Source: Vicinamibacterales bacterium (GTDB taxonomy: Bacteria; Acidobacteriota; Vicinamibacteria; Vicinamibacterales; CAVVIG01). From it: 64,000 nt of DNA. The stretch lies in contig JBEBGG010000003.1 in the NCBI GenBank assembly GCA_040081555.1, positions 628-64,627 of the forward strand, read 5' to 3'. Below are positions 1 through 64,000 of the stretch, piece after piece. Each line of letters opens with the position of its first letter. Positions within the stretch are counted from its first letter, which is position 1. Under the pieces are notes generated by a model, which did not search any database, had not been told where the DNA came from, and saw nothing but the letters and a program-made list of their open reading frames with translations. A program made the translations under genes and the position numbers.

Positions 1-35
1 TATTCGATTGCCCGGATGCGGCGACGCACGCAGGG

Positions 36-473
36 TTGACGCTGCCCATGACGGTGGATGTCCAAGTGGCGGCGTTCGCACAGAATGCGACCTTGCACGC
101 ATCGGAGGCGGATTACCTGAGCGCACAGGCGGCGCAAGGCATGTCGTTTCCAGCCAAGGCAGTCATTCCCTCTGGCGTGATCGCGCCGTCTGGCCAACCC
201 GTCTCCCCGCCCGAGCCCCACGCACTCATCAGCGGGCTCGTTCTCGAAGCCGACGAACGCCACAACGCGATCACGGGCAACGCATTCTTCTGGGCACTGG
301 TCGAGAGCGTCGGCGGCACGTTTGACGTCATCATCGACCCGACACTGCTCACCCACCGGCCAAGCGCCGGCAACGTCGTCTCCGGTTGGTTCTGGCTCTC
401 AGGTCGAATCATCACGCAGACCACGGCCCCCTCGGCCCGCAGCTGGTTCGGCAGGCTGACGGGGAGGAAGTAG
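36..473 (+). CDS. hypothetical protein (frame stays open to the window start, so possibly 5'-truncated)
   Basis: 145-aa ORF with protein-like composition. It starts at TTG and there is no stop in frame upstream to nt 3. No recognisable motifs. Confidence 0.4.
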   Translation: MTLPMTVDVQVAAFAQNATLHASEADYLSAQAAQGMSFPAKAVIPSGVIAPSGQPVSPPEPHALISGLVLEADERHNAITGNAFFWALVESVGGTFDVIIDPTLLTHRPSAGNVVSGWFWLSGRIITQTTAPSARSWFGRLTGRK

Positions 474-480
474 GCGGCCT

Positions 481-1701: not shown

Positions 1702-1836
1702 CCAGACGGCACGATCGCCAGACCGCCCGCTGGTATGTGTCGCCCCCCCGTCACATGGTCGATCTACTGACAGGGTTCGCGTGCCAGTTCGGCAGTTTTC
1801 CTAATAATTCTGGCTCCGTCCACCCCGGCACCCGGC

Positions 1837-5471: not shown

Positions 5472-5474
5472 CGC

Positions 5475-28032: not shown

Positions 28033-29771
28033 CTACTGGCTGACCCGTAGCCAGCGGAACTCAGACGGAGCGAGCGTGACAACGTCGCCGTCGAGTGTGA
28101 GGGTGCCCGCCTCCCCGCCTGCGACGAGAGGGCGAAGACTGGCCCCGGCCAGTTCCGTCGGCAGGCGGACTTCGCACGTGCGGGGCTGCAGCGAGAGATT
28201 GGCCACGACCAGCACCGTCTCGCGCTGGTAGCGTCGCAAGAACGCCAGCACCTCACCGCCACCCACCGTGAGGAACTCGATCGTGCCTCGGCCAAAGACC
28301 TGACTCTGCGCGCGAGCCGCGATCAGGCGGCGCAACCGCCAGAGCATCGACTGCTGGTCGCTCTCCTGCGCGTCGACATTCACCTCCGCACCACCGAACA
28401 CGGCGTCGTCGATGACAGGCTGCGTCAGCGGGCCCACGGTCTCCGAGAATCCGGCATTCAGTCCGGCGGTCCACTGCATGGGCGTACGAACGCCGTCGCG
28501 ATCATTCAGCCCCACGTTGTCACCCATCGCCAACTCATCACCGTAGTAGATCACGGGCGAGCCCGGCAGAGACAACAGCAACGAGAACGCCAGCATGATC
28601 CGCGCGGGGTCGTTGTCAAGCAGTGGCGCCAGTCGCCGACGGATGCCGAGGTTCAGCCGCATTCTCGGCTCAGGTGCATAGAGCGCGAACATCAGCCGCC
28701 GCTCGTCATCGGTCAGCGCTGAGATCGTCAACTCGTCGTGATTCCGGAGGAACAGCGCCCACTGTGCTGTTGGTGGAATCTCGCCGGTGCTCCTCACGAT
28801 CGACACGATCGGGCTCGCGTCTTCGCGCTTGAGCGCCAGGAACAGCCGCGGCATCAGCGGAAACTGGAACGCCATGTGGCACTCATCGCCCTGCCCGAAG
28901 TACTCGCAAGTGACGGCAGGGGCCTGGTCGGCTTCGGCCAGAAGGACGCGATGGGTATAGCGCCGGTCCATCTCGGTGCGAATTTCGCGGAGAAAGGCGT
29001 GGGTCTCGGGAAGGTTCTCGCACGATGTGCCCTCTCGCTCGTAGAGGTGCGCCACGGCATCGAGACGCAAACCATCCACGCCCTTGTCGAGCCAGAACCG
29101 CATCACCTTCAGAACGGCACGCCGCACCTTCGGATTGTCAAAGTTCAGATCCGGCTGGTGGCTGAAGAAGCGATGCCAGTAATACGCTTTGGCGATCGGA
29201 TCCCAGGTCCAGTTTGACGGCTCCACGTCATTGAAGATCACACGAGCGTCGCGATAGCGGTCGGGTGTCACACTCCAGACGTAGTAATCGCGCTTGGGCG
29301 ATCCCTCGGGCGCGAGTCGCGACGCCTGAAACCATGGGTGCTGGTCTGACGTGTGATTGATGACCAGTTCGGTGAACACCTGCAGGCCAAGCCGATGCGC
29401 TTCGGCCAGACAGCACCTGAAGTCATCCATGGTGCCGTAGCGCGCATCAATACGCTCGTAATGCGCAATGTCATAACCGTCGTCCTTGAGCGGCGATTCG
29501 TAGAACGGCAGCAGCCAGATGGCGTTCACGCCAAGTCGGCGCACGTAGTCGAGACGGCTGGTCAGCCCCCGAAAGTCGCCGATGCCGTCGCCGTTGCTGT
29601 CGCAGAAAGTGCGGACGTGCACCTGGTAGATGACGGCATCCTTGTACCAAAGCGGATCGATCGCGCTGCCCGCAGCCGGCGCGGTCCGCCGTCGCGCGCC
29701 GCGACGTCCAGGTGAAGGATGGGCGGCCAAGCGCTGGAGTGCGGGCCGACCCCGCCCCGAGAGCAGATGGG

Positions 29772-53499: not shown

Positions 53500-53976
53500 A
53501 TGCTGCGGGCCATGAAAAAACGGTCCTACCTCGCTGCCTTTGTCGCCGTCGCCGCGCTCAGTACTACCTTGCTCGCACAATCGTTCAACGTGCGTCCCGG
53601 CACGTGGGAAGTCACCGTGCAGATGCAGGGCGCCCTGCCCATGCAGGGCCTTCCGCCGGCGCAGCAGGCGCACATGGAAGCCGAGATGCGCAAACCGCGC
53701 ACAACCACGAGCTGCCTGAGCGCCGAGGACATCAAGTCGCTCAATCTCGGCTCGATGGACGAGGACCCGAACTGCAAGACCATCTCGTCGAAGATCGGCG
53801 CCACCGTCGGCGACATCGTCCGTCAGTGCACCGGCGACGATCCGCACACCGAGACCGCGCATTTCGAGGCGACGACGCCGCAGAGCCTCAAGGCGACCAT
53901 GACGTCGAAGGGCGCGCAGGGGACGATGACGATTGCGATGACCGGCCGGTGGATGTCCGCCGACTGCCGCCAGTAG
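53500..53976 (+). CDS. DUF3617-like secreted protein
   Basis: Start at ATG 53500 or 53512 gives a signal peptide. 'VRPGTWEVTVQMQG' and four spaced Cys residues. Confidence 0.55.
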   Translation: MLRAMKKRSYLAAFVAVAALSTTLLAQSFNVRPGTWEVTVQMQGALPMQGLPPAQQAHMEAEMRKPRTTTSCLSAEDIKSLNLGSMDEDPNCKTISSKIGATVGDIVRQCTGDDPHTETAHFEATTPQSLKATMTSKGAQGTMTIAMTGRWMSADCRQ

Positions 53977-53993
53977 TCTGCGTTCACGGCGCC

Positions 53994-54026
53994 GGACGCC
54001 CGCGTCTTCTTGAGGGCGCGGGGTCC
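53994..54026 (+). terminator. GC-rich stem-loop at the core/cassette-array junction
   Basis: GGAC(G)CCCGCG ... CGCGGGGTCC: 10-bp stem with one bulged G and a 12-nt loop, 18 nt after the DUF3617 stop. No U-tract. Confidence 0.4.
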
Positions 54027-54099
54027 ACCCATAGGATGTCGGGCGTTCTAATGTTCCAGCGAACTGCATTTCTCTTGCCGTCCTCTGATCGGAGCGTAC

Positions 54100-54825
54100 A
54101 TGACTCGAAGAATCCGTCGAGATCTCCGCATGCTCAAGGTGTGGGCCTTGCTCAGTACGAGTGTTTCCGCGTGGCTCGGCGCCTCGGCCCTGACCCACGG
54201 CCAGTCTCAGACCACAAAGTTCGACGAACTGAATGTTGAGCGGATCAACATCGTAGAGTCCGATGGACGGGTTCGTTTGGTCCTCTCAAATAGTGCTCGC
54301 CAAGCACAAACGGTGATCGATGGGCGCGTATTGGCGCCAGGTCGGAGCAGGCCTGCCGGCATGATCTTCTTTAACGAAGAAGGCGACGAAGTCGGCGGGG
54401 TGATCTTCAGCGGACTTAAGCAGCCGAACGGGCCGCAGGCGTCGGGCAGCCTGACATTCGACCAGTTCAAGCAAGATCAGACGGTCTCGCTCCACTATGC
54501 CGAGGGCCGGGGCCAACGGAGAGCGGGATTGGCGGTCATCGACCGCCCAAACGCGTCGCTGGCTTCGTATGCACCACTGATTGATCGGAGGCAGGCCGCA
54601 AAGACCGACGAGGAACGTGCCGCGATCGATCGAGAACTTTCGGCGCTGGGTCAGCCAAGTGCGCCGCGGATGTTTGTTGGCAAGGACGTCGATGGAAGAG
54701 CAACCCTCGCGCTTTCGGACGCAACAGGCAAACAGAGGCTCCTCCTGGGCGTCGCCCCGGACGGAAGCGCTAGCATTCGGTTCCTGGACTCTGCCGGCAA
54801 AGTCCTTCGGGAGATCGTGCCGTAG
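54100..54825 (+). CDS. secreted hypothetical protein (cassette 1, gene 1)
   Basis: 241 aa with a signal peptide. Repeated 'DG..R/S..L.L' strand-like motifs. No catalytic motif recognised. Confidence 0.6.
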   Translation: MTRRIRRDLRMLKVWALLSTSVSAWLGASALTHGQSQTTKFDELNVERINIVESDGRVRLVLSNSARQAQTVIDGRVLAPGRSRPAGMIFFNEEGDEVGGVIFSGLKQPNGPQASGSLTFDQFKQDQTVSLHYAEGRGQRRAGLAVIDRPNASLASYAPLIDRRQAAKTDEERAAIDRELSALGQPSAPRMFVGKDVDGRATLALSDATGKQRLLLGVAPDGSASIRFLDSAGKVLREIVP

Positions 54826-54827
54826 TT

Positions 54828-55436
54828 GTGGAATCCAAGATGCCTAACCTGACAGCCAATCTGGTGCTTGAACGCTGTCCCCATTGCTCTGTTGCCAGTC
54901 CGAATCTGCCTAGGCAGCACCATCTTGAAACGCAGGACCATGCCGGCGGCAATAGGCGCACGTGGGCGCTGTATGTGTGCGGCCGTTGTGGCGGCGTGGT
55001 GACGGCCTGCGCGACAGGCCATAGCCAGCTTGTTCAAGCACACTTTCCAGCCACGAAGTCAGTACAGGATGAGGTTCCTGAGAAGCCGCGGGCATTTCTC
55101 CAACAGGCTACAGAGAGCCTACACGCGCCAGCCGGGGCCGTAATGCTGGCCGCAAGTGCGGTTGACGCCATGCTCAAGATAAAGGGGTACTCCGAAGGTA
55201 CCTTGTACTCTCGCATCGAAAGAGCAGCTGCCGAGCACGCCGTTACCGCAGACATGGCAAGGTGGGCTCATGACGTTCGACTCGATGCCAACGACCAACG
55301 TCACGCCGATGAAGGGGCCGGTCTTCCTTCGCGGGCCGACGCGGGCCGCGCAATCGATTTCGCTCTGGCCCTGGCTGAGTTTATGTTCGTGTTACCCAGC
55401 CGCGTTCAGAGAGGCATTCAACAAGCTGCCGGCTAA
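54828..55436 (+). CDS. zinc-ribbon plus DUF4145 domain protein (cassette 1, gene 2)
   Basis: 'CPHCSV...CGRCGG' is a four-Cys ribbon. 'APAGAVMLAASAVDAMLK...WAHDVRLDANDQRH' is DUF4145-like. The TAA stop lies in the attC R'' box. Confidence 0.65.
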   Translation: MESKMPNLTANLVLERCPHCSVASPNLPRQHHLETQDHAGGNRRTWALYVCGRCGGVVTACATGHSQLVQAHFPATKSVQDEVPEKPRAFLQQATESLHAPAGAVMLAASAVDAMLKIKGYSEGTLYSRIERAAAEHAVTADMARWAHDVRLDANDQRHADEGAGLPSRADAGRAIDFALALAEFMFVLPSRVQRGIQQAAG

Positions 55437-55528
55437 TAGGCGCTTGCAGCCCACGAAGGTACGTTGAGCAGCCACCAAGAAATGCTCTAATCGCGCACGC
55501 CTTCGCGCCTGAAGCGCGAACGTTGGGC
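55431..55528 (+). repeat. attC-like site a (degenerate R'' GGCTAAT ... R' GTTGGGC)
   Basis: Shares 'CGCTTGCAGCC' with site e after the R'' box. Ends in GTTGGGCTGACAA, like site h. 98 bp. Confidence 0.55.
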
Positions 55529-55650
55529 TGACAAGATTCCGGACCAGCCTGGCCCGCGGCTTCGTTCGCAAAGGCGAGAATCAAGAAGGCGAAAAGGCCG
55601 GAACCGAAGAGGAAGCCCTAAATAACGTCAGGGATGCACGAGGATTCCAC

Positions 55651-56238
55651 ATGCGCCGCATTGTTGCCGTGCTGGTTCTGGTTGGCTTCGTAGTCGCCAC
55701 ACGCTCAACAGCCGCCCAGCCCCTTGACTCTCGTTTCCTTGCCCGGAAGTTCGTCGCACCCGAAAACGCTCCGTCGATGATCACAATGACGGACATGAAT
55801 GAAGGCGGCGAGCGGATGATCGTGACGGGCCAAGTCACGGACGGGTCCAAGCCGCTGGCAGGCGTATCGATTTACGTGTTTCAGGCCGACGCCAAGGGGC
55901 TATACACGACCGACGGTTTCAACAGTGATGACAGAGCGAGACTGCACGGTGCGATGCGCACCGATGCGACCGGGCGCTACAGGTTTGAAACCATTCGTCC
56001 GGCTGGCTACGGCGCCCCCCAGCCAATGCCCGCGCACGTCCACTACGTCGTCAGGGCGCCGAAAGGGTACAAATCGTTGATGTACCAGTTGTGGTTTGAG
56101 GATGACGCCGCCGTTGCCAAGCTCCGCGCAGATAACTCCCTGTTCAAACTGCCAGATTGGGTGGCCATCCGCCCAATCACACGCGATTCCGACGGCGTCT
56201 GGCACACCACGCGAGACGTGGTGCTGGATCGCGAATGA
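55651..56238 (+). CDS. intradiol ring-cleavage dioxygenase-like protein, secreted (cassette 2)
   Basis: 'VTGQVTDGSKPLAGVSIYVFQADAKGLY', 'GRYRFETIRPAGYG', 'PAHVHYVV'. Confidence 0.7.
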   Translation: MRRIVAVLVLVGFVVATRSTAAQPLDSRFLARKFVAPENAPSMITMTDMNEGGERMIVTGQVTDGSKPLAGVSIYVFQADAKGLYTTDGFNSDDRARLHGAMRTDATGRYRFETIRPAGYGAPQPMPAHVHYVVRAPKGYKSLMYQLWFEDDAAVAKLRADNSLFKLPDWVAIRPITRDSDGVWHTTRDVVLDRE

Positions 56239-56304
56239 CCGGCCTATGATTGGCCCGCAGCCCAACCTGTCTGCCATCCTGATTTCGAACCATGCTCAAA
56301 CAGT

Positions 56305-56365
56305 GCCCTAACCCTTCCCTCAAGCGGACTGGCCTTCGGCCCGCCGCTTAGATCACACGTTAGGC
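56305..56365 (+). repeat. attC-like site b (GCCCTAAC ... GTTAGGC)
   Basis: 61 bp. Arms CTCAAGCGG / CCGCTTAG around GGCCTTCGGCC. The R'' box has one extra C. Confidence 0.6.
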
Positions 56366-56398
56366 GTTCAAGTCACAGGCCAGGATCTGCAGAGCGTA

Positions 56399-57370
56399 AT
56401 GTTCCACACATACCAATTTGACCAACTCCCTCTTGATCGCGAAGTCTTCATGATGGATGAGCGTTGGCGAGCCGATTGGGAATCCGCGCAACAAGAAATG
56501 GTGCAAGGGCGCGGCGACGGGATTGTGGGCTTCATCAGCTATGTCGCTGTTCGGCGCTGCGGTTCTGATTCGGCGTCTCTGTCCTGGTATCCAAACATCA
56601 CAGATCGGTTTCACGAGCTGGGAATCCGATTACCTCGGACCGCCTTTGTGACCTGCGTCTCCGTTCCTGGTTGGGATGTTAAGCCGCATATCTTCGTTAA
56701 CAGTGAATGGCTCAACTCCCTTCACTTTCGTCCCTATACGGCATTCGCTTTGGTAGATGCAATCGGTGTCCGTGCGGCGTTGGCTGCAGGTGCATTGGGT
56801 GGCAAAGCGCTCGTTCGTTTGCGTGACCGAATCGATCAAATCGCATCTGAAAATCCCCAAGTTGCCTTTCTGAGCTTCGCTGACAGCCTGCTCCTAAAGG
56901 TCAACTGGTTTGTGGGGCAGTTCGGTAGCGCCGTGCGATATTCGTACGAGCCAGAGATCCTGGTGCGGCTGCTACCGACCATCGCTGCCGCCTTCGAGAA
57001 AGAGATTGGGCTTCCTGTATACACGGCCATCACACAGGGCGCAAATGAGTACGAAGACAGTGAACTGCTTCATTTCTCGGAACGAAGGAATCACGTATCG
57101 TTGAACAGTCTTGGCTTGCCGTTCGCGCAACTACAGGCGATCGATGGAGCTGCCAGAGCGGCAATCCGCGCGGGAAGGCACCCAAAAGCTGAGCTATACA
57201 TGGATGAGTGCTTCTTCCGGTCGCTGCGCCTTCGCTACGGCTTCGACAAGAAAGCCCTCTCGACAGGCATCTACAAGGCCCCGCTCTCATCCGAGGATGC
57301 GGAGTATGTCTGCGCTGATTGCGCCACAATCCTTGAGAATCTCGATAATGAAAAGTCGCAATCTGCTTGA
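56399..57370 (+). CDS. orphan hypothetical protein with a nucleotidyl-cyclase-like motif pattern (cassette 3)
   Basis: 323 aa, no signal peptide. 'TAFALVDAIGV' (D120) and 'VAFLSFADSLLLKV' (D162) are spaced like the two metal-binding Asp strands of class III cyclase/GGDEF palm folds. This is weak, pattern-only evidence. Confidence 0.55.
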   Translation: MFHTYQFDQLPLDREVFMMDERWRADWESAQQEMVQGRGDGIVGFISYVAVRRCGSDSASLSWYPNITDRFHELGIRLPRTAFVTCVSVPGWDVKPHIFVNSEWLNSLHFRPYTAFALVDAIGVRAALAAGALGGKALVRLRDRIDQIASENPQVAFLSFADSLLLKVNWFVGQFGSAVRYSYEPEILVRLLPTIAAAFEKEIGLPVYTAITQGANEYEDSELLHFSERRNHVSLNSLGLPFAQLQAIDGAARAAIRAGRHPKAELYMDECFFRSLRLRYGFDKKALSTGIYKAPLSSEDAEYVCADCATILENLDNEKSQSA

Positions 57371-57379
57371 GACGGTGAC

Positions 57380-57455
57380 GCCTAACTTGCGTTGCACCAG
57401 ACGGGGGCCAGTGTAGTGATGGGCCGCCGCTGGTGAACGCTGGCATTAGTTGGGC
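57380..57455 (+). repeat. attC-like site c (GCCTAAC ... ATTAGTT/GTTGGGC)
   Basis: Near-identical left arm to sites h and i (TGCGYTGCACCAGACGG). The homologous R' reads ATTAG (G to A), with GTTGGGC 4 nt downstream. Confidence 0.65.
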
Positions 57456-57486
57456 AGACTAAGGGACTTACAGAGCCGCAAGCCTT

Positions 57487-58326
57487 ATGTCGCCAGTCGA
57501 TCCCCTGTTCAGGGCGCGCACCGACAGACTCGTTCGGTCCGGGTACCTGCCGAGCTTTTCAGGCATGGCGCAGGCGATGTGCGCACCCTTCTGGTGGAGC
57601 GTCGGTCCGAAGGGCCGAGCTGAAATTCTTGGCAATGGGACAATTTGCTTCGTCAACACGGGCGGTGCCCACATCGGAGTCACGGCTGACCATGTATTCG
57701 CTGAGTATCTCTCCGCCAAGACAACTCATGCTGACGTTGAGTGCCAGTTCGGCGGGAACACCTTCGCTCCTGAGGGCTACCTCATCGACAGGAGCCCTGA
57801 GACTGAACTGGACCTCGCCACGTTTCGAGTACCTGAGGTCTTCGTAACGGCCAGTCGGGGCCACTATCACCACAATGCGCTGGCGTGGCCGCCGCCAGCA
57901 CCTCGCGATACGGAAGTTGTTCTCTACGGTGGGTATCCGCAAGCCCTCAGGAACCCGGATGGCGGCCAGGTTCACTTCGGGTTCGAGTACTTCATTTCTC
58001 GTGTCAGCTCTACAGAGGAGACTCGCGTCGTGCTGGATCCGGATCTCGCCAACTTGTACTGGCCGGGCCACGACGGTGAAGCGATCAACGTGCAGTGGGG
58101 TGGCATCAGTGGCGGTCCCGTCTACCGGGTAATCGATGCCTCGCCAGGTGCAGAGCCCGTTGACCGTCTGGAGCTTGTCGGCTTTGTCTATCAGCGTTGG
58201 CAGGAGGTCATGCTTGCCAGGCCAGCAGGTCTCGTGAACCTCGACGGAACGATCAATCGGGGCGCCATCGCCGCAACGCCGCCTAACCACGCGCTGGAGC
58301 CGACGCTACCCGGCGGTGTATCGTGA
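57487..58326 (+). CDS. trypsin-like (S1/PA-clan) serine protease, no signal peptide (cassette 4)
   Basis: Triad candidates: 'GVTADHVF' (H69), 'ELDLATFRV' (D109), 'WGGISGGPVY' (S208). The 3' end runs 46 nt into attC site d. Confidence 0.65.
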   Translation: MSPVDPLFRARTDRLVRSGYLPSFSGMAQAMCAPFWWSVGPKGRAEILGNGTICFVNTGGAHIGVTADHVFAEYLSAKTTHADVECQFGGNTFAPEGYLIDRSPETELDLATFRVPEVFVTASRGHYHHNALAWPPPAPRDTEVVLYGGYPQALRNPDGGQVHFGFEYFISRVSSTEETRVVLDPDLANLYWPGHDGEAINVQWGGISGGPVYRVIDASPGAEPVDRLELVGFVYQRWQEVMLARPAGLVNLDGTINRGAIAATPPNHALEPTLPGGVS

Positions 58327-58360
58327 CGCCGCGTAGCGCGGCTCAGCGCTACCGTTAGGC
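58281..58360 (+). repeat. attC-like site d (GCCTAAC ... GTTAGGC)
   Basis: 80 bp. GCGCTGGAGCCGACGC ... GCGCGGCTCAGCGC imperfect dyad. Confidence 0.8.
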
Positions 58361-58389
58361 AGATGACTCTGAACATCATGTAGTGAACC

Positions 58390-59217
58390 ATGGCCCTGGC
58401 AACTGACGATCCGCAGCCGATTCCCGGGTATCGAAACTATCTGGTCTACTGTGATGAGTCCGGCCAGCAGGGCAAGGTGTACTACGGCTTCGGTTCCCTT
58501 TGGATGCCGTGGGAGCGACGGGGTGATTTTACCGGTCTGATCGGGGCGCTGCGCGACAAGCATCGCTACCACCACGAGATCAAGTGGAACAAGATTGACG
58601 ACCGCAACGAAGGGTTCTACCGAGACCTTGTCGAAGAGATCTTTCGCCGCAACTGGCTGATGTTCCACTGCTTGGTAGGCCGCAAAGGCTACATCGACAA
58701 GTCTCTTCACGCCGGCGGATACGACGAGGCATTGCGAAAGCACTTCGCTATGCTGATGCGCAAGAAGATTGGCTTCTTTTCACAAGGCGACCGCCAGAAG
58801 GCGTATCACATTGTGGTCGACAAGATGCCATCAAGCTACGCCAAGGCTGACGAAGCGGCTCACGTCATCGTCAACCACACTTTGAAGCGAGAGATGGGCT
58901 TCACACCCGTCCACACTCTCGTCAGCCGTAACTCGAGAGATTCGGCAGGCATCCAGGCTGCTGACGTGCTGTTGGGCGCTGTGGTGACCGCCTGGAATCA
59001 AGAGAAATCTGGTCCGGCGAAGCAAGGGCTACGCGACTGGGTGGCCGAACATCTAGGCTGGCGGCATCTCAGAGCCGACACTCGCCACTGGGAATGGAAG
59101 TTCAATATTTGGTATTTCCATGCCGATGGCGGGACGAAGCCACGGGAGGCGCGATCTTGGGCACTGAACCTGAAGTATCCCGTTCCACCGTACAACCCGC
59201 GCCGACGCTCTGCCTAA
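58390..59217 (+). CDS. DUF3800 domain protein (cassette 5)
   Basis: N-terminus 'LVYCDESGQQGKVYYGFGSLW' is the DUF3800 hallmark. 'AGIQAADVLLGAV' lies near the C-terminal third. The TAA stop is inside the R'' box. Confidence 0.75.
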   Translation: MALATDDPQPIPGYRNYLVYCDESGQQGKVYYGFGSLWMPWERRGDFTGLIGALRDKHRYHHEIKWNKIDDRNEGFYRDLVEEIFRRNWLMFHCLVGRKGYIDKSLHAGGYDEALRKHFAMLMRKKIGFFSQGDRQKAYHIVVDKMPSSYAKADEAAHVIVNHTLKREMGFTPVHTLVSRNSRDSAGIQAADVLLGAVVTAWNQEKSGPAKQGLRDWVAEHLGWRHLRADTRHWEWKFNIWYFHADGGTKPREARSWALNLKYPVPPYNPRRRSA

Positions 59218-59283
59218 CTCCGCTTGCAGCCGACGGCGGCTGAGGCGATGATGAGCCGCCGCGGCTGATGAGTAGCGTTAGGC
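59212..59283 (+). repeat. attC-like site e (GCCTAAC ... GTTAGGC)
   Basis: 72 bp. GCAGCCGACGGCGGCT / AGCCGCCGCGGCTG arms with an unpaired A. Confidence 0.85.
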
Positions 59284-59293
59284 GGATTGCCTG

Positions 59294-60358
59294 ATGTCTG
59301 ATGAGAATGGAGTGGTGATGAAGCGACGCATGCTTGCCTCATTGGCCACAGTCGTGTGCGCAGCGTCGACCACCAGCTTTGCGCAGGCGCCACCGGCACC
59401 CAACGCCGCCTTCGATGTCTACCTCAGTCAGGAAGCGAGCGTCAGGCTCGAGGATGGCCGAAGTCTCCACCTTGTCTGCATGGGTGCCGGAAGTCCGACC
59501 GTCATTCTCTCCGCGGGGGCCGGCAGCTGGAGCGTCACCTGGGCTAGGGTGCAGGGCGAACTCGCCACACTGACGCGCGCGTGCGCCTGGGACCGTCCGG
59601 GTTTCGGTTTCAGCAGTGCGTCACCGATGCCACAGAACGTGGTCAACACGACCATGGACTTGGAGGCAGCCCTCAGTCGCGGCGGAGTCGAGGGACCATA
59701 TGTCATGGTTGGCCATTCGCTCGGTGGTCACGAGTCACTGATCTTCGCCGACCGACATCGGAGCTCGGTTGCCGGCATGGTGCTTGTAGATCCGGGCATT
59801 CCGGACCACTGGGCGCGTATCGGGCGTTCCGCACCAGCGATTCTGAAGGTAAATCACGAGATTTGGCCGCGGCAGGCCGCCGAGTTGAGGCAGTGCGCTC
59901 GGGTCGTTCGCTTTGAGGCTGATTCGGCCGAGGCAGACCGCTGCCGCCGGATTGGAGTGTCACCGAACTATTCGAAGCCGCTCTCTGACGCGCTGATTCA
60001 ATGGTCCGCGGATCCTGCACGGTTTGAAACACGAGCGTCGCTCGTCGAGAATTCAGAGCTGCACAGCCGGCTCGCGCTGAATCCAGACCGAGACTATGGC
60101 TCGATGCCGCTGATCGTGCTGTCGTCAACGATCCCAGATACCCCGCCGCCGGACCCGCCCGAGCGACGGGCGACGCTGCTCGCCGAGACGCCAAGGGCAA
60201 TGGCGGAAATGTTCAAGGGACACGAGGAGCTCGCCGCTTTGTCGAGAATGGGCGTACATAGGTCGGTACCGGATGTGGGCCACTTTATTCAAACGGCAAA
60301 GCCAGAAGTCGTTACTGCCGCGGTTGCGGAGATTGTTCAGGCCGTGCGCGCGCACTGA
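59294..60358 (+). CDS. secreted alpha/beta hydrolase (cassette 6)
   Basis: Signal peptide from the internal 'MKRRMLASL' (alternative start 59318). Nucleophile elbow 'VGHSLGGH'. C-terminal 'VGHFIQ' His context. Confidence 0.75.
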   Translation: MSDENGVVMKRRMLASLATVVCAASTTSFAQAPPAPNAAFDVYLSQEASVRLEDGRSLHLVCMGAGSPTVILSAGAGSWSVTWARVQGELATLTRACAWDRPGFGFSSASPMPQNVVNTTMDLEAALSRGGVEGPYVMVGHSLGGHESLIFADRHRSSVAGMVLVDPGIPDHWARIGRSAPAILKVNHEIWPRQAAELRQCARVVRFEADSAEADRCRRIGVSPNYSKPLSDALIQWSADPARFETRASLVENSELHSRLALNPDRDYGSMPLIVLSSTIPDTPPPDPPERRATLLAETPRAMAEMFKGHEELAALSRMGVHRSVPDVGHFIQTAKPEVVTAAVAEIVQAVRAH

Positions 60359-60442
60359 GGGGACCAAGGGATCCTTTTCGAAGTGCGCACGTCATTTCCG
60401 TGCACGGACTGACCTATTGCTGGCTCCTCATCTGCAGTTACC

Positions 60443-60525
60443 GCCTAACTTCGTCTGGAGCCGACGCGGCCCGCGTGGAACAATCACCGCGATCCGAGCC
60501 GCGCGGCTCATCTGAATCGTTAGAC
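60443..60525 (+). repeat. attC-like site f (GCCTAAC ... GTTAGAC)
   Basis: 83 bp. CTGGAGCCGACGCGGC ... GCCGCGCGGCTCA imperfect dyad. Confidence 0.8.
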
Positions 60526-60590
60526 CCTCAGTGGGAGATGATCCGGCGCATTGGCCGACCGCACACGCTCTTGGAGCACAGGTTCCGACC

Positions 60591-61979
60591 ATGATCCGAA
60601 TATTCCTCGTGGCATCCGTGACGGCTGCAGTGCTCGCAATCGGCCCGCACACGGGAAGCTCCGCCGCCGCTCAACAGCTAACGCCGTCTCCGTGGCGACG
60701 GTTCGATCGCAGCCCAAGAATCGAGCAGCTTCGTCGAGATCTCGAATCCGGCAAGACGGACACGACGCCCTTCTGGGCGGATATCAAGTCCAGCGGCACG
60801 CCACTCATCGAGCGACTGCCTGGAGCCACAAAGCACGCCCTGGTGACGTTTCTCTATCGCGGAGGACCTGACACTCGTAACGTCGTGGTGTTCCTCTCGG
60901 ACTTCGGTGGCGTCAGGCCGGCCGATCACATGATGTCCAGGCTCGGACAAACAGATGTCTGGTTTCTGACGGTCAGGCTGCCAAGCCAGGCACGGTTCAT
61001 CTATCGCCTGTCAATCAACGACCCGCTTGATAATCCGTTCCACGGAGCATTAATGGGCGGCACGCTGAAGCTTGACGAGCTCAACCCACATCGCTTCTTC
61101 AACATAGGAAGCATTGCGGAGTTGCCGGACGCTCCCCCGCAGCCGTGGCTCCAGAAGCCAGTCCAGGCCGGAATAGTCTCTGACCCTCAGACAATCACCA
61201 GTCGCCTGCTCAAGAAGGATCGAAAGCTGTGGGTATATCTGCCTCCAGGCTATGAACAGAGCAGATCAGTATCGAACCTCGTCATCCTGTTCGACGGCAC
61301 GATGTACGCGAACAGACTCGCCGCGCCTACCACTCTGGACAATCTGATCGCCGCGAAGCGGCTGTCATCGACCGTGGTGGTCTTCGTAGAGACACCAGTA
61401 GAAACCAGAAACGACGAGATGTTCTGGAACACGACATATGCGGATTTCCTCGCGAACGAGCTGGTTCCGTGGATCAGGGCTCGCTATCGCGTCACGAAGG
61501 ACGCAAGACGAGTGGTCGTCGGCGGTGCAAGCGCGGGTGGTGCCGGCGCCACATATGCCGCGCTACGGCACCCCAGGGTATTTGGCAATGTCCTGTCTCA
61601 ATCCGGCGGATTCTTCGCTTCACCTGAACGCAATCGTGAGTTGGCTGAGCGTTCGCCGCTCCTTACGCGCGAGAACGACGATCGTCACGTCGTCGAGGAG
61701 ATCGAGGATAGGGCTGTCACTGAGGGCGGATGGTTGGCGAAGCTCTTCATCCAGGAGCCTCGTCTGCCGATTCGTTTCTATCTCGACGTGGGTGCCTTTG
61801 AGGCTGATTTCATGGGCGGTGGTCTCGGCGCACTCGAGCCTAACCGCCACATGCGCGACGTCCTGCTTGCGAAGGGCTACGAGGTGCACTATCAAGAGTT
61901 CATGGGTGGTCACGACTACATTAACTGGCGCGGTACATTTGCTGACGGCATACTTGCGCTCATCGGGGAGACGAGGTAG
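60591..61979 (+). CDS. secreted esterase, enterochelin-esterase-like (cassette 7)
   Basis: Signal peptide from ATG 60591. N-terminal Ig-like segment 'VWFLTVRLPSQARFIYRL'. Esterase core 'VVGGASAGGAGATYAAL'. C-terminus 'GGHDYINW'. Confidence 0.7.
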   Translation: MIRIFLVASVTAAVLAIGPHTGSSAAAQQLTPSPWRRFDRSPRIEQLRRDLESGKTDTTPFWADIKSSGTPLIERLPGATKHALVTFLYRGGPDTRNVVVFLSDFGGVRPADHMMSRLGQTDVWFLTVRLPSQARFIYRLSINDPLDNPFHGALMGGTLKLDELNPHRFFNIGSIAELPDAPPQPWLQKPVQAGIVSDPQTITSRLLKKDRKLWVYLPPGYEQSRSVSNLVILFDGTMYANRLAAPTTLDNLIAAKRLSSTVVVFVETPVETRNDEMFWNTTYADFLANELVPWIRARYRVTKDARRVVVGGASAGGAGATYAALRHPRVFGNVLSQSGGFFASPERNRELAERSPLLTRENDDRHVVEEIEDRAVTEGGWLAKLFIQEPRLPIRFYLDVGAFEADFMGGGLGALEPNRHMRDVLLAKGYEVHYQEFMGGHDYINWRGTFADGILALIGETR

Positions 61980-62011
61980 GTCGCACATCAGGCAGTTAGT
62001 GGTTCGTCGGG

Positions 62012-62081
62012 GTCTAACATCGGCTGCCCTTGACCGCAGCCTTCATTTCTTGGCGGCCGCGAGTGAGCCGTGCCGTTAGGC
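62012..62081 (+). repeat. attC-like site g (GTCTAAC ... GTTAGGC)
   Basis: 70 bp. CGGCTG..CCGC / GCGG..CAGCCG-type imperfect arms. Confidence 0.75.
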
Positions 62082-62182
62082 ACTTAGTCGAATACACCTC
62101 CCGGGGCCGAGGGAATCTGAGTTCTGTCGCACGAACCAGTTCACCTTTGGCACGGGACCGTCACACTGGCAGGGTCGCGGCC

Positions 62183-62794
62183 ATGGAACGACGAACACTC
62201 CTTCACATCGGTATGCGGTTCTCGGCCGTTGCGGCGCTCGGCAAGACGCTGTCGGCGCAGACTCCCAAGCTCCTGATTCCAGCGGTCTATCTGTCGGAGA
62301 AGTACACCGCGCTCCCAACTGCGCCATCAGCCGTTGTCATTGCCGGTCCGGATGAACCTGGCGAACGCTTGGTTGTCACCGGGTGCGTCCTTGACGGCAC
62401 TAAACCTGTTCCCGGCGTATCGATCTATGCGTTTCACGCCGACCAGAAGGGGCTCTACGAACCACGGGGCATGAACCAAGGAGTAGACCCGCGGCTATAC
62501 GGTGCGATGCGAAGCGATGAGGGTGGACGCTATCGGTACGAGACGATCCGTCCGGGTTACTACGGCGGCAGCGACAACCCTGCGCATGTGCACTACGTGG
62601 TGAATGCGCCAGGGTACAAGCCACGTCTGGTCGATCTGCGATTTGAAGATGACCCGGTGATCGCCGCGCGCCGAAAACGGGGCGTCGATGATGACGATGG
62701 TTTCGAGCCTGGGAAAATGGTTGTGCGGCCGGTCGAGCGCGATGCCACGGGCGTGTGGCATGTAACGCGAGACTTGGACATGATTCGGGACTAG
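62183..62794 (+). CDS. intradiol dioxygenase-like protein with a Tat-like signal (cassette 8); paralog of 55651-56238
   Basis: 'MERRTLLHIG' signal. 'VTGCVLDGTKPVPGVSIYAFHADQKGLY', 'GRYRYETIRPGYYG', 'PAHVHYVV'. Confidence 0.7.
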   Translation: MERRTLLHIGMRFSAVAALGKTLSAQTPKLLIPAVYLSEKYTALPTAPSAVVIAGPDEPGERLVVTGCVLDGTKPVPGVSIYAFHADQKGLYEPRGMNQGVDPRLYGAMRSDEGGRYRYETIRPGYYGGSDNPAHVHYVVNAPGYKPRLVDLRFEDDPVIAARRKRGVDDDDGFEPGKMVVRPVERDATGVWHVTRDLDMIRD

Positions 62795-62816
62795 CCCGCA
62801 TCGTCACTCGCACGGT

Positions 62817-62885
62817 GCCTAACATGCGCTGCGCCAGACGGCCGCGGCGCTCATTGGTGGCCGCCGGTGAGCGCTATCGTTGGGC
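62817..62885 (+). repeat. attC-like site h (GCCTAAC ... GTTGGGC)
   Basis: 69 bp. Highly similar to site i (ATGCGCTGCRCCAGACGGCC ... GGTGAGCGCT). Confidence 0.85.
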
Positions 62886-62917
62886 TGACAAACACGACGA
62901 ACGGACTGATCTGATGG

Positions 62918-63153
62918 CTATCGGGAGTGCTTGAGACGAGCCTGCCAATGGCCTGGTTTCCGGCGGTCGTGGGCAATGGCGAGGATGCGAAGCTCCGGGC
63001 CTACTTCGAGATAGATGACGTGATAAGGGAAGCGGGTCACCGCACGGCGTCGAAGAACTCAATGCCGAGGTGCTCCCGGCAGTCCTCGTAGTACCGGCCG
63101 GCGAAACGGTACTCGGCGTACGCTTCGTCTTCAAATCGAACGCGCGGGTTCAC
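62918..63153 (-). pseudogene. decayed RelE/ParE-family toxin (frameshifted, possibly internally deleted)
   Basis: The GTG at 63153 overlaps the antitoxin stop (GTGA). Frame 1 reads 'MNPRVRFEDEAYAEYRFAGRYYEDCREHLGIEFFDAVR*' with a stop at 63037. The ParE-like C-terminus 'AVTRFPYHVIYLEVGPELRILAIAHDRRKPGHW' continues in another frame to 62918. Confidence 0.7.
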
Positions 63154-63395
63154 CGCCGCCGCAATTCCTCTTCGGCGCGACGACGAACCTCCTGCCATGG
63201 GACGCCAGCAGACTCCCCTGCCAGGACTCGCCTTGCCCTACGCCCGATTTCCGCGGCCCAGGCCGCTTCGACTTCGCCTGGATCATCCGCGGCTGCGTCG
63301 TCGAGGCTGGCCAGCAACTGCGCGGCCACATCGGCACGCTCATGGACCGGCAGGGCCAGTGCTTCTCGCAGAAGTTCTTGCGACCGTGGCGACAT
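63150..63395 (-). CDS. addiction-module antitoxin component (Unstab_antitox-like)
   Basis: 81 aa. 'LLREALALPVHERADVAAQLLASL...AWAAEIGRRARRVLAGE' is typical of this antitoxin family. Antisense to the cassette array. Confidence 0.75.
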   Translation of the reverse strand: MSPRSQELLREALALPVHERADVAAQLLASLDDAAADDPGEVEAAWAAEIGRRARRVLAGESAGVPWQEVRRRAEEELRRR

Positions 63396-63420
63396 GAGGC
63401 CATTCTACCGCGAGACCTCA

Positions 63421-63489
63421 GCCCAACATGCGCTGCACCAGACGGCCACCAAGGTCGGGACCGGCCGCTGGTGAGCGCTGGCGTTAGAC
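63421..63489 (+). repeat. attC-like site i (GCCCAAC ... GTTAGAC)
   Basis: 69 bp, a near-copy of site h. Confidence 0.85.
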
Positions 63490-63542
63490 CGATTGGAAAC
63501 GACATCGGAACGGCGCCGAGCGAAGGGAGTAAGATCGGCCCC

Positions 63543-63764
63543 ATGGGGTGGGAACAACGAATCACCGTGAATCCCGGCATCCGTAGTGGTAAGCCGTGCA
63601 TCAAAGGCACGCGCATCACCGTCTACGACGTGCTGGAATATCTCGCTGGTGGTATGACCGAAGCGCAGCTGCTGGGCGACTTCCCGGATCTGGCTCCCGA
63701 GGATATTCGCGCCAGCCTTGCCTTCGCCGCCGCGCGTGAACGTCGCGTGAGTTCGGTGGCGTGA
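63543..63764 (+). CDS. DUF433 domain protein (putative antitoxin)
   Basis: 'ITVNPGIRSGKPCIKGTRITVYDVLEYLAGGMTEAQLLGDFPDLAPEDIRASLAFA' is the DUF433 signature. Confidence 0.8.
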   Translation: MGWEQRITVNPGIRSGKPCIKGTRITVYDVLEYLAGGMTEAQLLGDFPDLAPEDIRASLAFAAARERRVSSVA

Positions 63765-64000
63765 AGCTGCTCTTCGACGCGAACCTCAGCCCCACACTCG
63801 TCGCACATCTTCGCACGCACTACCACGGCAGTCTGCACGTCCGCGACATCGGCCTCGGCGCAGGTTCGGATGCGAAGATCTGGGAACACGCGAAAGCCGA
63901 AGCGTTTGTCATCGCCTCGAAGGACACAGACTTCCGGGAGCGAAGCTTTGTCGAGGGATTCCCACCGAAGGTGGTGTGGCTCAACCTCGGAAATGCCGGC
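63761..64000 (+). CDS. DUF5615 (PIN-like) protein, putative toxin; 3'-truncated by the window end
   Basis: GTGA overlap with the DUF433 stop. 'KLLFDANLSPTLVAHL...HVRDIGLGAGSDAKIWEHAKAEAFVIASKDTDF'. Confidence 0.75.
   Translation, partial: MKLLFDANLSPTLVAHLRTHYHGSLHVRDIGLGAGSDAKIWEHAKAEAFVIASKDTDFRERSFVEGFPPKVVWLNLGNAG

What the first reader, a model, noticed from the sequence alone, without database searches (positions are those of the whole stretch)
54045..64000. Integron-type gene cassette array (9 attC-like sites) with no integrase in sight
Seen directly in the sequence. Nine co-oriented 61-98 bp elements are present: 55431-55528, 56305-56365, 57380-57455, 58281-58360, 59212-59283, 60443-60525, 62012-62081, 62817-62885 and 63421-63489. 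Each begins with an RYYYAAC-type box (GCCTAAC x5, GTCTAAC, GCCCAAC, two degenerate). Each ends with GTTRRRY (GTTAGGC x4, GTTAGAC x2, GTTGGGC x3). Between the boxes is an imperfect dyad with unpaired bases, for example GCAGCCGACGGCGGCT/AGCCGCCGCGGCTG. The primary sequence is otherwise poorly conserved except among sites c, h and i. Exactly one element follows each ORF or ORF pair, giving units of 0.6-1.6 kb. Two stop codons are supplied by the TAA of the R'' box (55434-55436 and 59215-59217), and one ORF runs into its site. This is the architecture of attC sites and promoterless integron cassettes. The region is also compositionally foreign: single-line spot counts give 45-52% G+C against about 65% upstream. 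The cassette contents (orphans, hydrolases, TA modules) fit a sedentary chromosomal integron or CALIN. Such arrays are reservoirs of uncharacterised functions, including anti-phage genes.
Basis: partly seen in the sequence, partly recalled or inferred. Interest (0 to 1): 0.85.

Follow-up and report, generated by a model that had tools for sequence, protein, structure and literature searches.

The report
Integron cassette array without its integrase
The last 10 kb of the window is a genuine integron gene-cassette array (nine attC recombination sites, ten cassettes) with no integrase next to it, which is a well-known kind of element called a CALIN, here in an uncultured, probably soil, bacterium.

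Summary
All nine elements are at the stated coordinates, on the + strand, one after each ORF or ORF pair.

**attC test.** A covariance model built only from 11 class 1 resistance-cassette attC sites finds eight of the nine and nothing with E below 4 in the 54 kb upstream. A second model, built from 56 attC sites of soil-MAG arrays, finds all nine at 22-63 bits. All nine share the canonical layout: R box, spacer, 3+6 bp L box with two single-base bulges, variable loop. In total 91% of box positions pair, with compensatory changes.

**Mobility.** Two cassettes recur in other metagenome arrays with different neighbours. Three of the four homology breakpoints fall at the R' crossover point.

**Integrase.** IntI1 and four soil-MAG IntIs give no match anywhere in the 64 kb. 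In related complete integrons intI sits directly 5' of the array. So this is a CALIN.

**Corrections.** G+C is 57-62%, not 45-52%. Site c's real R' box is probably ATTAGTT.

**Verdict.** Side notes are an orphan cassette protein with a class III nucleotidyl-cyclase fold and a DUF3800 cassette matching a candidate defence family.

The parts
54045..54051 (+). Left junction of the array: GGGC G|TTCTAA. This is a GTT-containing, non-canonical core with no attC or attI-like sequence upstream of it.
   Evidence: Read directly from the sequence. Neither model finds an attC here with filters off. There is no similarity to the attI regions of intI-linked MAG loci. The sequence is compatible with a 5'-GWT-3' secondary (attG) site (10.1101/2022.09.11.507474). 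The G+C and GC3 break occurs here.
54100..54825 (+). Cassette 0, ORF 1: 241 aa, apparent N-terminal signal peptide, no family match.
54840..55436 (+). Cassette 0, ORF 2: DUF4145 protein. Its stop codon is the TAA of site a's R'' box.
   Evidence: Pfam PF13643, 29.2 bits. ORF map.
55431..55528 (+). attC site a (98 nt, degenerate: R'' GGCTAAT, R' GTTGGGC).
   Evidence: R2 gives 22.3 bits, E 4e-4. R1 does not find it. The layout can be parsed.
55651..56238 (+). Cassette 1: intradiol dioxygenase-like protein with a signal peptide.
   Evidence: PF00775, 74.9 bits. The 3' end of the ORF and the 3' UTR as far as GCCCAA are 96% identical (DNA) in contig L002, where a different attC and a different neighbour follow.
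56306..56365 (+). attC site b (60 nt). Its 5' arm closely resembles the aacA4 attC.
   Evidence: R1 37.3 bits, E 5e-7. R2 32.4 bits. Compared with the aacA4 attC.
56399..57370 (+). Cassette 2: orphan protein of 323 aa with a predicted class III nucleotidyl-cyclase fold.
   Evidence: No Pfam, NCBIfam or PADLOC match. At least 552 homologues. AlphaFold2 model pLDDT 87.9. Foldseek hits to adenylyl/guanylyl cyclases at E about 1e-5. The whole cassette recurs in array L144.
57380..57455 (+). attC site c. The R' box is probably ATTAGTT (57445-57451) rather than GTTGGGC (57449-57455).
   Evidence: R1 18.8 bits, with the hit ending at 57451. R2 57.0 bits. Homology to the L144 cassette ends at ...GCTGGCATTAG.
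57487..58326 (+). Cassette 3: weak trypsin-like peptidase. The ORF ends inside site d.
   Evidence: PF13365, E 0.0012, below the family cutoff. ORF map.
58281..58360 (+). attC site d (80 nt), the best-formed hairpin of the nine.
   Evidence: R1 41.4 bits, E 4e-8. R2 55.8 bits. Bottom-strand DNA fold -33.8 kcal/mol, z = -5.6.
58390..59217 (+). Cassette 4: DUF3800 protein. Its stop codon is the TAA of site e's R'' box.
   Evidence: PF12686, 47.8 bits. PADLOC candidate defence family PDC-M04A, E 2.6e-31.
59212..59283 (+). attC site e (72 nt).
   Evidence: R1 19.9 bits. R2 63.0 bits. Fold z = -5.2.
59294..60358 (+). Cassette 5: alpha/beta hydrolase with a signal peptide.
   Evidence: PF12697 and PF00561.
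60443..60525 (+). attC site f (83 nt).
   Evidence: R1 19.9 bits. R2 37.3 bits.
60591..61979 (+). Cassette 6: esterase with an enterochelin-esterase N-terminal domain.
   Evidence: PF00756, 105 bits, and PF11806.
62012..62081 (+). attC site g (70 nt).
   Evidence: R1 11.9 bits, E 1.5. R2 41.9 bits.
62183..62794 (+). Cassette 7: second intradiol dioxygenase-like protein, 50% identical to the cassette 1 protein.
   Evidence: PF00775. blastp.
62817..62885 (+). attC site h (69 nt, stem with two mismatches).
   Evidence: R1 15.6 bits, E 0.17. R2 49.6 bits. Fold z = +0.29.
62900..63395 (-). Cassette 8, in reverse orientation: an intact antitoxin (63150-63395) followed by a frameshifted ParE/RelE-like toxin (about 62900-63150).
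   Evidence: PF09720, 52 bits. The three-frame translation shows the toxin split between two frames.
63421..63489 (+). attC site i (69 nt).
   Evidence: R1 30.0 bits, E 4e-5. R2 63.0 bits.
63543..64000 (+). Cassette 9: a DUF433 antitoxin-like gene (63543-63764) and a DUF5615/PIN-like gene cut by the end of the window.
   Evidence: PF04255 for the DUF433 gene; PF18480 and PF18478 on the L002 copy of the second gene. The same module follows a different cassette in L002. The closest homologues in metagenomes are flanked by attC sites.

Best explanation
Window 54045-64000 is an array of at least ten integron gene cassettes. Each is an ORF, ORF pair or toxin-antitoxin module followed by an attC site. 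The array lies in the chromosome next to ordinary metabolic genes, with no integron integrase and no attI beside it. That makes it a CALIN (cluster of attC sites lacking an integrase).

Mechanism, taken from established integron biology and inferred here, not shown:
1. When the DNA is single-stranded, the bottom strand of each attC folds into a hairpin. The R''/R' and L''/L' boxes pair, leaving an unpaired spacer and two flipped-out bases.
2. An IntI tyrosine recombinase recognises that shape and cuts between A and C of the bottom-strand AAC, which is G|TT on the top strand.
3. Recombination between two attC sites releases a circular cassette. Recombination of attC with attI, or with a genomic GWT site, inserts it.

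This array has no integrase of its own. Its cassettes can therefore move only if an IntI is supplied in trans, from elsewhere in the genome or from an incoming element. Their expression must rely on read-through from the co-oriented upstream genes or on internal promoters, as is usual for the TA modules.

The attC sites are heterogeneous and each resembles attC sites from other phyla more than it resembles its neighbours. This indicates a mosaic assembled from a shared environmental cassette pool.
For: **Shown here**
1. A model trained only on 11 class 1 attC sites from clinical plasmids hits 8 of 9 sites with exact ends, all on the + strand, and gives nothing with E below 4 in 1-54000.
2. A model built from 56 attC sites of MAG arrays hits all nine.
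3. Within the nine sites, 91% of R/L-box cells pair, against 22-43% when partners are slid. Six of the nine L-box pairs show compensatory changes. In the 56 MAG sites the L box is 99% paired.
4. Bottom-strand DNA folds of c, d, e, f and i show a 1-nt bulge on the 3' arm, and all nine sites share the layout of the cmlA1 and aadA attC sites.
5. The ORF4 cassette recurs in a different nine-site array, L144, at 83.5% identity over 1093 nt. The homology begins at the upstream R' box and ends in the cassette's own R' box.
6. In L002 the DUF433/PIN cassette follows the dioxygenase cassette directly, joined at G|TTAGAC.
7. Five MAG loci carrying the c/h/i-type attC have an IntI immediately 5' of the array: four with a full-length intI, TIGR02249 at 384-447 bits against a cutoff of 265, and one (L023) with an IntI fragment seen by tblastn only.
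8. No IntI is present in the window. IntI1 gives a best E of 2.9 and the four MAG IntIs a best E of 0.24.
9. The flank encodes glycosyltransferases, oxidoreductases, an ABC transporter and ferrochelatase.
10. GC3 drops from 0.82-0.88 in the flank to 0.59-0.72 in the cassettes.

**Definition used:** at least two attC sites less than 4 kb apart on one strand, without intI (PMC4889954).
Against: - No recombination was observed. Activity is inferred from sequence comparison alone.
- Site a is marginal. Site h has a weakened stem. Site c has lost the crossover G. Some junctions may therefore be dead.
- R2 is not fully independent, because its source loci were fetched with a 21-nt motif taken from sites c, h and i. 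R1 is independent.
- The left breakpoint of the L002 rearrangement lies at the R'' box (after GCCCAA), not at R', which the canonical model does not predict.
- The source genome is unknown, and up to about 5 kb of the 69-kb source contig lies outside the window. An intI elsewhere in the genome, or a misjoin at 54.04 kb, cannot be excluded.
- No independent assembly covers the left junction. The Logan contig L001 starts at 54757.
Confidence: 0.88

Rival explanations
1. The array is the cassette part of a complete integron. Its intI/attI platform has been separated from it by a misassembly or misjoin at about 54.04 kb, or by a recent chromosomal rearrangement. On this reading the integrase-less state is an artefact or very recent.
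For: - Draft assemblies often split integrons at attC sites (IntegronFinder 2.0 preprint).
- No independent contig spans the junction. L001 starts at 54757, and look-ups of ORF1 and of the upstream gene found nothing.
- Composition changes sharply at the junction.
Against: - The junction lies in an ordinary intergenic spacer after a hairpin, with co-oriented genes on both sides.
- There is no attI-like sequence or intI fragment.
- Most CALINs have no recognisable intI pseudogene nearby (PMC4889954), so the state is common.
- A compositional break is expected for any acquired array.
Confidence: 0.1
2. The array is a fossil: former cassettes whose sites have decayed and no longer recombine. It now functions only as a fixed block of accessory genes.
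For: - Site a is degenerate, site h's stem has two mismatches and z = +0.29, and site c's crossover G is mutated.
- The ParE-like toxin is frameshifted.
- No intI lies within 54 kb.
Against: - Six sites keep intact boxes, bulges and stable hairpins (z from -2.5 to -5.6) and score 32-63 bits.
- Near-identical cassettes (96-98% DNA identity) are arranged differently in another sample, which points to recent exchange.
Confidence: 0.2
3. The elements are a general intergenic repeat (REP/BIME-like) or transcription-terminator hairpins, unrelated to integrons.
For: They are GC-rich imperfect palindromes placed after ORFs.
Against: - None occurs in the 54 kb upstream.
- They are found by a model trained on clinical attC sites.
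- They carry RYYYAAC and GTTRRRY boxes at fixed distances from the bulges.
- They are not followed by T-runs. Terminator-like sites number 8 against 7.7 expected.
- The same site type sits next to IntI genes in other genomes.
- Rearrangement breakpoints fall at G|TT.
Confidence: 0.01

Closest known systems
CALIN (cluster of attC sites lacking an integron integrase; Cury et al. 2016, PMC4889954)
   Same: At least two co-oriented attC sites less than 4 kb apart. No intI or intI pseudogene nearby. Cassettes mostly of unknown or non-resistance function. Chromosomal location.
   Different: With nine or more sites it is larger than most: 83% of CALINs have fewer than six attC sites. The host is an uncultured high-GC bacterium rather than a sequenced isolate.
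attC sites of class 1 mobile-integron cassettes (aadA1/aadA2/aadB, cmlA1, blaVIM-2, aacA4)
   Same: Same geometry: R''(7) - spacer - 3 bp - bulge - 6 bp - bulge(A) - stem. The 5' arms are nearly identical. Window sites e, d and f carry TG(C/G)AGCCGACG, as do cmlA1 and blaVIM-2 (TGCAGCCGAC). Site b carries CCTAACCCTTCC..., as does aacA4.
   Different: The spacer is usually 4 nt rather than 5. The first bulged base is G on the top strand (C on the bottom) in most sites, rather than C (G on the bottom). None of the cassette genes are resistance genes.
Inverted-integrase integrons of soil Acidobacteriota and Gemmatimonadota MAGs (loci L024, L061, L017, L051, L023)
   Same: Same attC sequence type. 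Window sites c and i are 84% identical to attC sites in the intI-linked loci L024 and L017. The cassettes are similarly small and unannotated, and include TA cassettes.
   Different: Those loci have a TIGR02249 integrase directly 5' of the array and co-oriented with it, plus an attI ending in AGTTAGGC or AGTTRGRC. The window has neither.
Sedentary chromosomal integrons (Vibrio and Xanthomonas type)
   Same: Chromosomal array of cassettes with orphan genes and TA modules, some of them inverted.
   Different: No intI. Only 9-10 cassettes are visible. The attC sites are heterogeneous, with mean pairwise identity 0.61, against 0.78 in the related array L144.

Membership tests
attC recombination site | Inverse core R'' (RYYYAAC) at the 5' end and core R' (GTTRRRY) at the 3' end, mutually complementary | tested here: met
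   Seven of nine R'' boxes are exact and nine GTTRRRY boxes are present. The R helix is 92% paired across the nine sites. Site a's R'' and site c's homologous R' (ATTAGTT) are degenerate.
attC recombination site | Imperfect palindrome with an L''/L' box, an unpaired central spacer and extrahelical bases on the R''/L'' arm of the folded bottom strand | tested here: met
   Folds. Model alignments show 3 bp - bulge - 6 bp - bulge in all nine sites. The L helix is 90% paired, with compensatory changes in 6 of 9 pairs.
attC recombination site | Detected by an attC covariance model | tested here: met
   Surrogate models were used. R1 (11 class 1 attC sites) finds 8 of 9, six of them at E <= 0.025. 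R2 (56 MAG attC sites) finds 9 of 9 at E <= 4e-4. IntegronFinder's own attC_4 model and HattCI could not be run.
attC recombination site | Recombined by an integron integrase as a folded bottom strand, with crossover at G|TT | not testable with these tools
   Indirect evidence only. Homology breakpoints between arrays fall at R' in three of four junctions.
CALIN | At least two attC sites on the same strand, each less than 4 kb from the next | tested here: met
   Nine sites on the + strand, spaced 0.6-1.6 kb apart.
CALIN | No integron integrase gene or pseudogene next to the cluster (4 kb, or 10 kb for pseudogenes) | tested here: met
   tblastn with IntI1 (verified 100% identical to database intI1) and with four soil IntIs gives a best E of 0.24 over the whole 64 kb. 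No tyrosine-recombinase box motifs were found. The 3' side beyond 64000 is unseen, but intI is not expected there in either known layout.
Integron gene cassette | A mobile unit of ORF plus attC that occurs in different arrays, bounded by TTRRRY...G | tested here: met
   ORF4 cassette: window 56358-57449 matches L144 5234-6326, with different neighbours on both sides. DUF433/PIN cassette: a different upstream neighbour in L002, joined at G|TTAGAC.
Complete integron | intI, attI and Pc adjacent to the first cassette | tested here: not met
   No intI. The left junction has no similarity to the attI regions of related integrons.
Sedentary chromosomal integron | intI plus a large array (more than about 19 sites) of highly similar attC sites | tested here: not met
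   No intI. Nine sites are visible. Mean pairwise attC identity is 0.61, range 0.49-0.75.
REP/BIME-type dispersed intergenic repeat | Copies scattered through the intergenic regions of the genome, without cassette organisation | tested here: not met
   No copies in 1-54000 with either model, filters off. The rest of the genome is not available.

The most novel reading that the evidence does not exclude
The array may be an active exchange partner of trans-acting, inverted-type integron integrases in soil bacteria, seeded at a genomic GTT (attG-like) site. Two unrecognised features could accompany this. First, attC replacement by a non-canonical exchange at the R'' box, because the dioxygenase cassette carries two unrelated attC sites in two samples and the sequences diverge exactly after GCCCAA. 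Second, a single-gene class III cyclase-fold cassette family (ORF4, at least 552 homologues, no Pfam match) that could act as a new streamlined nucleotide-signalling anti-phage defence.
Probability: 0.12. Interest if true: 0.55.

Novelty: new member of a known kind. Interest (0 to 1): 0.3.

Why it matters
It adds one well-documented example to a large known class. CALINs and soil integron arrays are already catalogued in the thousands.

Its practical value is as a source of cassette genes worth testing:
- a DUF3800 protein matching the PADLOC candidate family PDC-M04A;
- an orphan family with a nucleotidyl-cyclase fold;
- several secreted hydrolases and dioxygenase-like enzymes.

It is also a clean case showing that cassettes with class 1-like attC sites circulate between arrays of uncultured high-GC soil bacteria. 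That is relevant to where mobile-integron cassettes come from.

Tried and rejected
- **Rfam.** A gathering-threshold scan of the whole window gave 0 hits. Rfam's lack of an attC family is my own knowledge, not a tool result, so this says nothing about attC either way.
- **Extending the contig.** Exact-protein look-ups returned only a 9-kb Logan contig identical to 54757-63773 and the 928-bp L002. The 69-kb source contig is not retrievable.
- **Genome scan.** The scan with the c/h/i motif did not return the source genome. L013 looked like a continuation (contig 65,795 nt) but its sequence does not continue the window.
- **Organism.** It could not be named. Paper searches for the run and assembly accessions found nothing.
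- **A decayed attC or attI at the left boundary (53976-54051).** I considered this. A hairpin is there, but neither model scores it and it has no similarity to the attI regions of related integrons. Rejected.
- **GCCTAAC at 54842.** This overlaps the DUF4145 start codon and has no attC behind it. Rejected as chance.
- **Weak R2 hits at 28582-28657 and 10874-10926.** Both lie inside coding ORFs and lack AAC/GTT boxes. Rejected.
- **PADLOC.** Nothing significant for nine of the ten cassette proteins scanned.
- **Promoters.** The sigma-70 scan was uninformative: 2 sites found against 2.9 expected.
- **Constrained folding.** My attempt to force R-box pairing did not take effect. The unconstrained folds were used instead.

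Full report
**Observation.**
- Seven begin with an exact RYYYAAC box. Site a begins with GGCTAAT, and site b with CCCTAAC at 56306.
- All nine end with a GTTRRRY box.
- GCCTAAC, GTTAGGC and GTTAGAC are almost confined to this 10 kb. GCCTAAC, for example, occurs 7 times here and once in the other 54 kb.
- Each element follows one ORF, an ORF pair or a toxin-antitoxin pair, and all are on the + strand.
- The TAA stops at 55434-55436 and 59215-59217 lie inside R'' boxes, and ORF 57487-58326 ends inside site d.
- The G+C figure of 45-52% is wrong. One-kb windows give 57-63%, and the region averages 60.0% against 65.5% upstream. The break is real and is sharper at third codon positions: GC3 is 0.59-0.72 in cassette ORFs and 0.82-0.88 in the flanking genes.

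**Are they attC sites? An independent model.** Rfam returned no hits for the window. That Rfam has no attC family, so that this result is uninformative, is my own knowledge. IntegronFinder could not be run, so I built a surrogate.
It proved 100% identical to database intI1.
2. I used it to fetch class 1 integrons from clinical plasmids.
3. I cut out 11 bona fide attC sites: aadA1, aadA2, aadB, psp, qacL, cmlA1, blaVIM-2, aacA4, arr-3, estX and aac(6')-29a.
4. I aligned them and built covariance model R1. Its only pairs are the textbook R box (7 bp) and L box (3+6 bp, with two single-base bulges).

With filters off on the whole window, R1's eight best + strand hits are reader sites with exact ends:

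| Site | Bits | E-value |
|---|---|---|
| d | 41.4 | 4e-8 |
| b | 37.3 | 5e-7 |
| i | 30.0 | 4e-5 |
| f | 19.9 | 0.014 |
| e | 19.9 | 0.014 |
| c | 18.8 | 0.025 |
| h | 15.6 | 0.17 |
| g | 11.9 | 1.5 |

Site a is missed. The best hit anywhere else scores 10.2 bits (E 4.1). The 5' arms are close to clinical ones. Sites d, e and f read TG(C/G)AGCCGACG, like cmlA1 and blaVIM-2. Site b reads CCTAACCCTTCC..., like aacA4.

**Structure.** Bottom-strand DNA folds of b-g and i are more stable than shuffles, with z from -2.0 to -5.6. Sites a and h are not.
- Sites c, d, e, f and i show a 1-nt bulge on the 3' arm in the fold. R-box pairing and the internal loop appear in the minimum-energy fold only for some sites: d, e and f, and also b.
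- All nine share one layout: R''(7) - spacer(4-5) - 3 bp - bulge - 6 bp - bulge(A) - stem - variable loop - stem - 6 bp - 3 bp - spacer(6) - R'(7).
- Across the nine sites, 91% of box positions form standard pairs, against 22-43% when partners are slid. Six of the nine L-box pairs change on both sides.
- Caveat: that alignment was fitted to the model.

**Relatives.** A 21-nt motif shared by sites c, h and i (AACNTGCGYTGCRCCAGACGG) was scanned through one genome per species. It gave 50 loci, mostly soil or groundwater MAGs of Acidobacteriota (Vicinamibacterales, Solibacteraceae), Gemmatimonadota, Acidimicrobiia and Planctomycetota.
- None overlaps the window.
- R1 finds co-oriented arrays of attC sites in these loci.
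- Five loci carry an IntI homologue 48-55% identical to IntI1. The four full-length ones (L024, L061, L017, L051) score 384-447 bits on TIGR02249 'integron integrase', against a cutoff of 265. L023 has only a fragment and was not scanned.
- In all five, intI lies directly 5' of the array and on the same strand. This is the known 'inverted integrase' layout (PMC13323075).
- The 56 best MAG sites (alignment A3) show an L box that is 99% paired, with compensatory changes in 6 of 9 pairs.
- Model R2, built from them, finds all nine window sites at 63.0 to 22.3 bits. The next best hit scores 16.8 bits and lies inside a coding ORF with no AAC/GTT boxes.
- R2 is not fully independent of the window, because its loci were fetched with a window-derived motif. 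R1 is independent.
- Each window site resembles attC sites in other phyla's arrays (up to 84-89% identity) more than it resembles its neighbours (maximum 75%, mean 61%).

**Mobility.**
- *ORF4 cassette.* The closest homologue of the ORF4 protein (84% amino-acid identity) lies in a JGI metagenome contig, L144. That contig is a different array of nine attC sites, scoring 48-71 bits. DNA homology runs from L144 5234-6326 to window 56358-57449, at 83.5% over 1093 nt. It starts at the R' box of the upstream attC (GTTAGGC|GTTCAA in both) and ends in the cassette's own R' box. The neighbours differ on both sides. This comparison also shows that site c's R' box is ATTAGTT (57445-57451), where L144 has GTTAGGC. 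R1's hit ends at the same place.
- *DUF433/PIN cassette.* A 928-bp NCBI metagenome contig, L002, joins the end of the first dioxygenase cassette (96% identity) directly to the DUF433/PIN cassette (97.8% identity). The join is through another attC, at G|TTAGAC.
- *DUF433 homologues.* Among 80 metagenomic DUF433 homologues, the closest ones are flanked by attC sites, in either orientation.

**No integrase.**
- tblastn of IntI1 against the window gives a best E of 2.9. The four soil IntIs give a best E of 0.24.
- No tyrosine-recombinase box motifs occur together.
- The 10 kb to the left encodes glycosyltransferases, an aldo-keto reductase, an alcohol dehydrogenase, an ABC transporter, ferrochelatase, an SRPBCC protein and a DUF3617 protein.
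- In both known integron layouts intI sits at the 5' end of the array, and that end is fully visible here. The element therefore meets the CALIN definition (PMC4889954).
- The left junction reads GGGC G|TTCTAA. It has no attC and no resemblance to the attI regions of the related integrons.
- It is compatible with insertion at a genomic 5'-GWT-3' secondary site (10.1101/2022.09.11.507474), and equally compatible with loss of the platform. I cannot tell these apart.
- No independent assembly covers the junction. L001 starts at 54757. The source contig is 69 kb, so up to about 5 kb of it is unseen.

**How it most likely works.** *Shown:* the sites have attC sequence and structure, the cassettes occur in different arrays with breakpoints at the crossover point, and there is no local integrase. 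*Inferred from established integron biology:* the bottom strands fold, an IntI supplied in trans cuts at AA|C, attC x attC recombination excises circles, and these insert at an attI or at a secondary site. *On expression:* the gaps between an attC and the next start codon are only 29-122 nt, and promoter-like sites are not enriched (2 found against 2.9 expected; a weak test for this organism). This fits promoterless cassettes that depend on read-through from the co-oriented upstream genes.

**Cassette contents**:
- an unannotated, apparently secreted protein together with a DUF4145 protein;
- two intradiol-dioxygenase-like proteins, 50% identical to each other;
- a weak trypsin-like protein;
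- a DUF3800 protein matching the PADLOC candidate family PDC-M04A (E 2.6e-31);
- an alpha/beta hydrolase;
- an esterase;
- an inverted antitoxin with a frameshifted ParE-like toxin;
- a DUF433 plus PIN-like pair.

The orphan ORF4 belongs to a family of at least 552 homologues with no Pfam model. Its AlphaFold2 model (pLDDT 87.9) matches class III adenylyl/guanylyl cyclase catalytic domains. Foldseek gives E about 1e-5 and target-normalised TM 0.53-0.63, and the hits include a uridylate cyclase.

**Unexplained.** The dioxygenase cassette carries unrelated attC sites in the window and in L002. The two sequences diverge exactly after GCCCAA (56260-56265). In the window, 46 nt bracketed by two RYYYAA|C boxes precede site b. 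This could be an exchange on the R'' side, an attC replacement, or simple decay.

**Verdict.** This is a real integron cassette array of the CALIN kind. It is a new member of a known kind and of modest interest.

Noticed in passing
window 56399-57370: The orphan cassette protein ORF4 (323 aa, no Pfam, NCBIfam or PADLOC match, at least 552 homologues at 50-84% identity) has a confident predicted fold (pLDDT 87.9). It matches class III adenylyl/guanylyl cyclase catalytic domains and a uridylate cyclase. D120 and D162 are invariant and sit where the two metal-binding aspartates would be; that is my reading and was not tested. One homologue lies on a genomic island with phage-type integrases rather than in an array.
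   Followed up: partly
window 58390-59217: The DUF3800 cassette protein matches the PADLOC candidate anti-phage family PDC-M04A (E 2.6e-31, 225 of 232 profile positions).
   Followed up: no
window 56260-56312, and L002 278-350: The dioxygenase cassette has a different attC in another sample. The sequences diverge exactly after GCCCAA of an R''-like box. The window has an extra 46 nt bracketed by two RYYYAA|C boxes before site b. This may reflect a non-canonical exchange on the R'' side or an attC replacement.
   Followed up: partly
window 57445-57455: Site c's homologous R' box is ATTAGTT, with the crossover G mutated to A. A second GTTGGGC lies 4 nt downstream. The junction between cassettes 2 and 3 may be impaired, or may use the downstream box.
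   Followed up: partly
window 62900-63150 (- strand): The ParE/RelE-like toxin of the inverted TA cassette is split between two reading frames, while its antitoxin (63150-63395) is intact. The Logan contig has the identical sequence, so this is unlikely to be an error specific to one assembly.
   Followed up: partly
loci L024, L061, L017, L051, L023: All five integrase-linked soil-MAG arrays found with the c/h/i attC motif have intI on the same strand as the cassettes and directly 5' of them (the inverted-integrase layout). Their attI ends in AGTTAGGC, AGTTGGGC, AGTTAGAC or GCGTTAGAC, about 0.3 kb after the intI stop codon.
   Followed up: partly
window 54100-62794: Five of the cassette proteins (ORF1, both dioxygenase-like proteins, the alpha/beta hydrolase and the esterase) begin with what look like signal peptides. 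This is by eye only; no predictor was run. The two dioxygenase-like cassettes are 50% identical paralogues carrying different attC types.
   Followed up: no
window 53993-54030: A GC-rich hairpin (GGACGCCCGCG...CGCGGGGTCC) without a T-run lies between the stop codon of the DUF3617 gene and the array's left junction. It is not scored as an attC by either model.
   Followed up: partly
locus L144 (JGI Ga0183872_10600254) 1-6443: A nine-site array with much more uniform attC sites (mean pairwise identity 0.78, maximum 0.97) than the window's (0.61). It is a candidate for the kind of array where c-type cassettes such as ORF4 originate.
   Followed up: partly
window sites c, d, e, i compared with loci L024, L041, L021, L017: Individual window attC sites are 83-89% identical to attC sites in MAGs assigned to other phyla (Acidobacteriota, Acidimicrobiia), without any homology between the adjacent ORFs. 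This suggests attC types are shared across phyla in soil.
   Followed up: no
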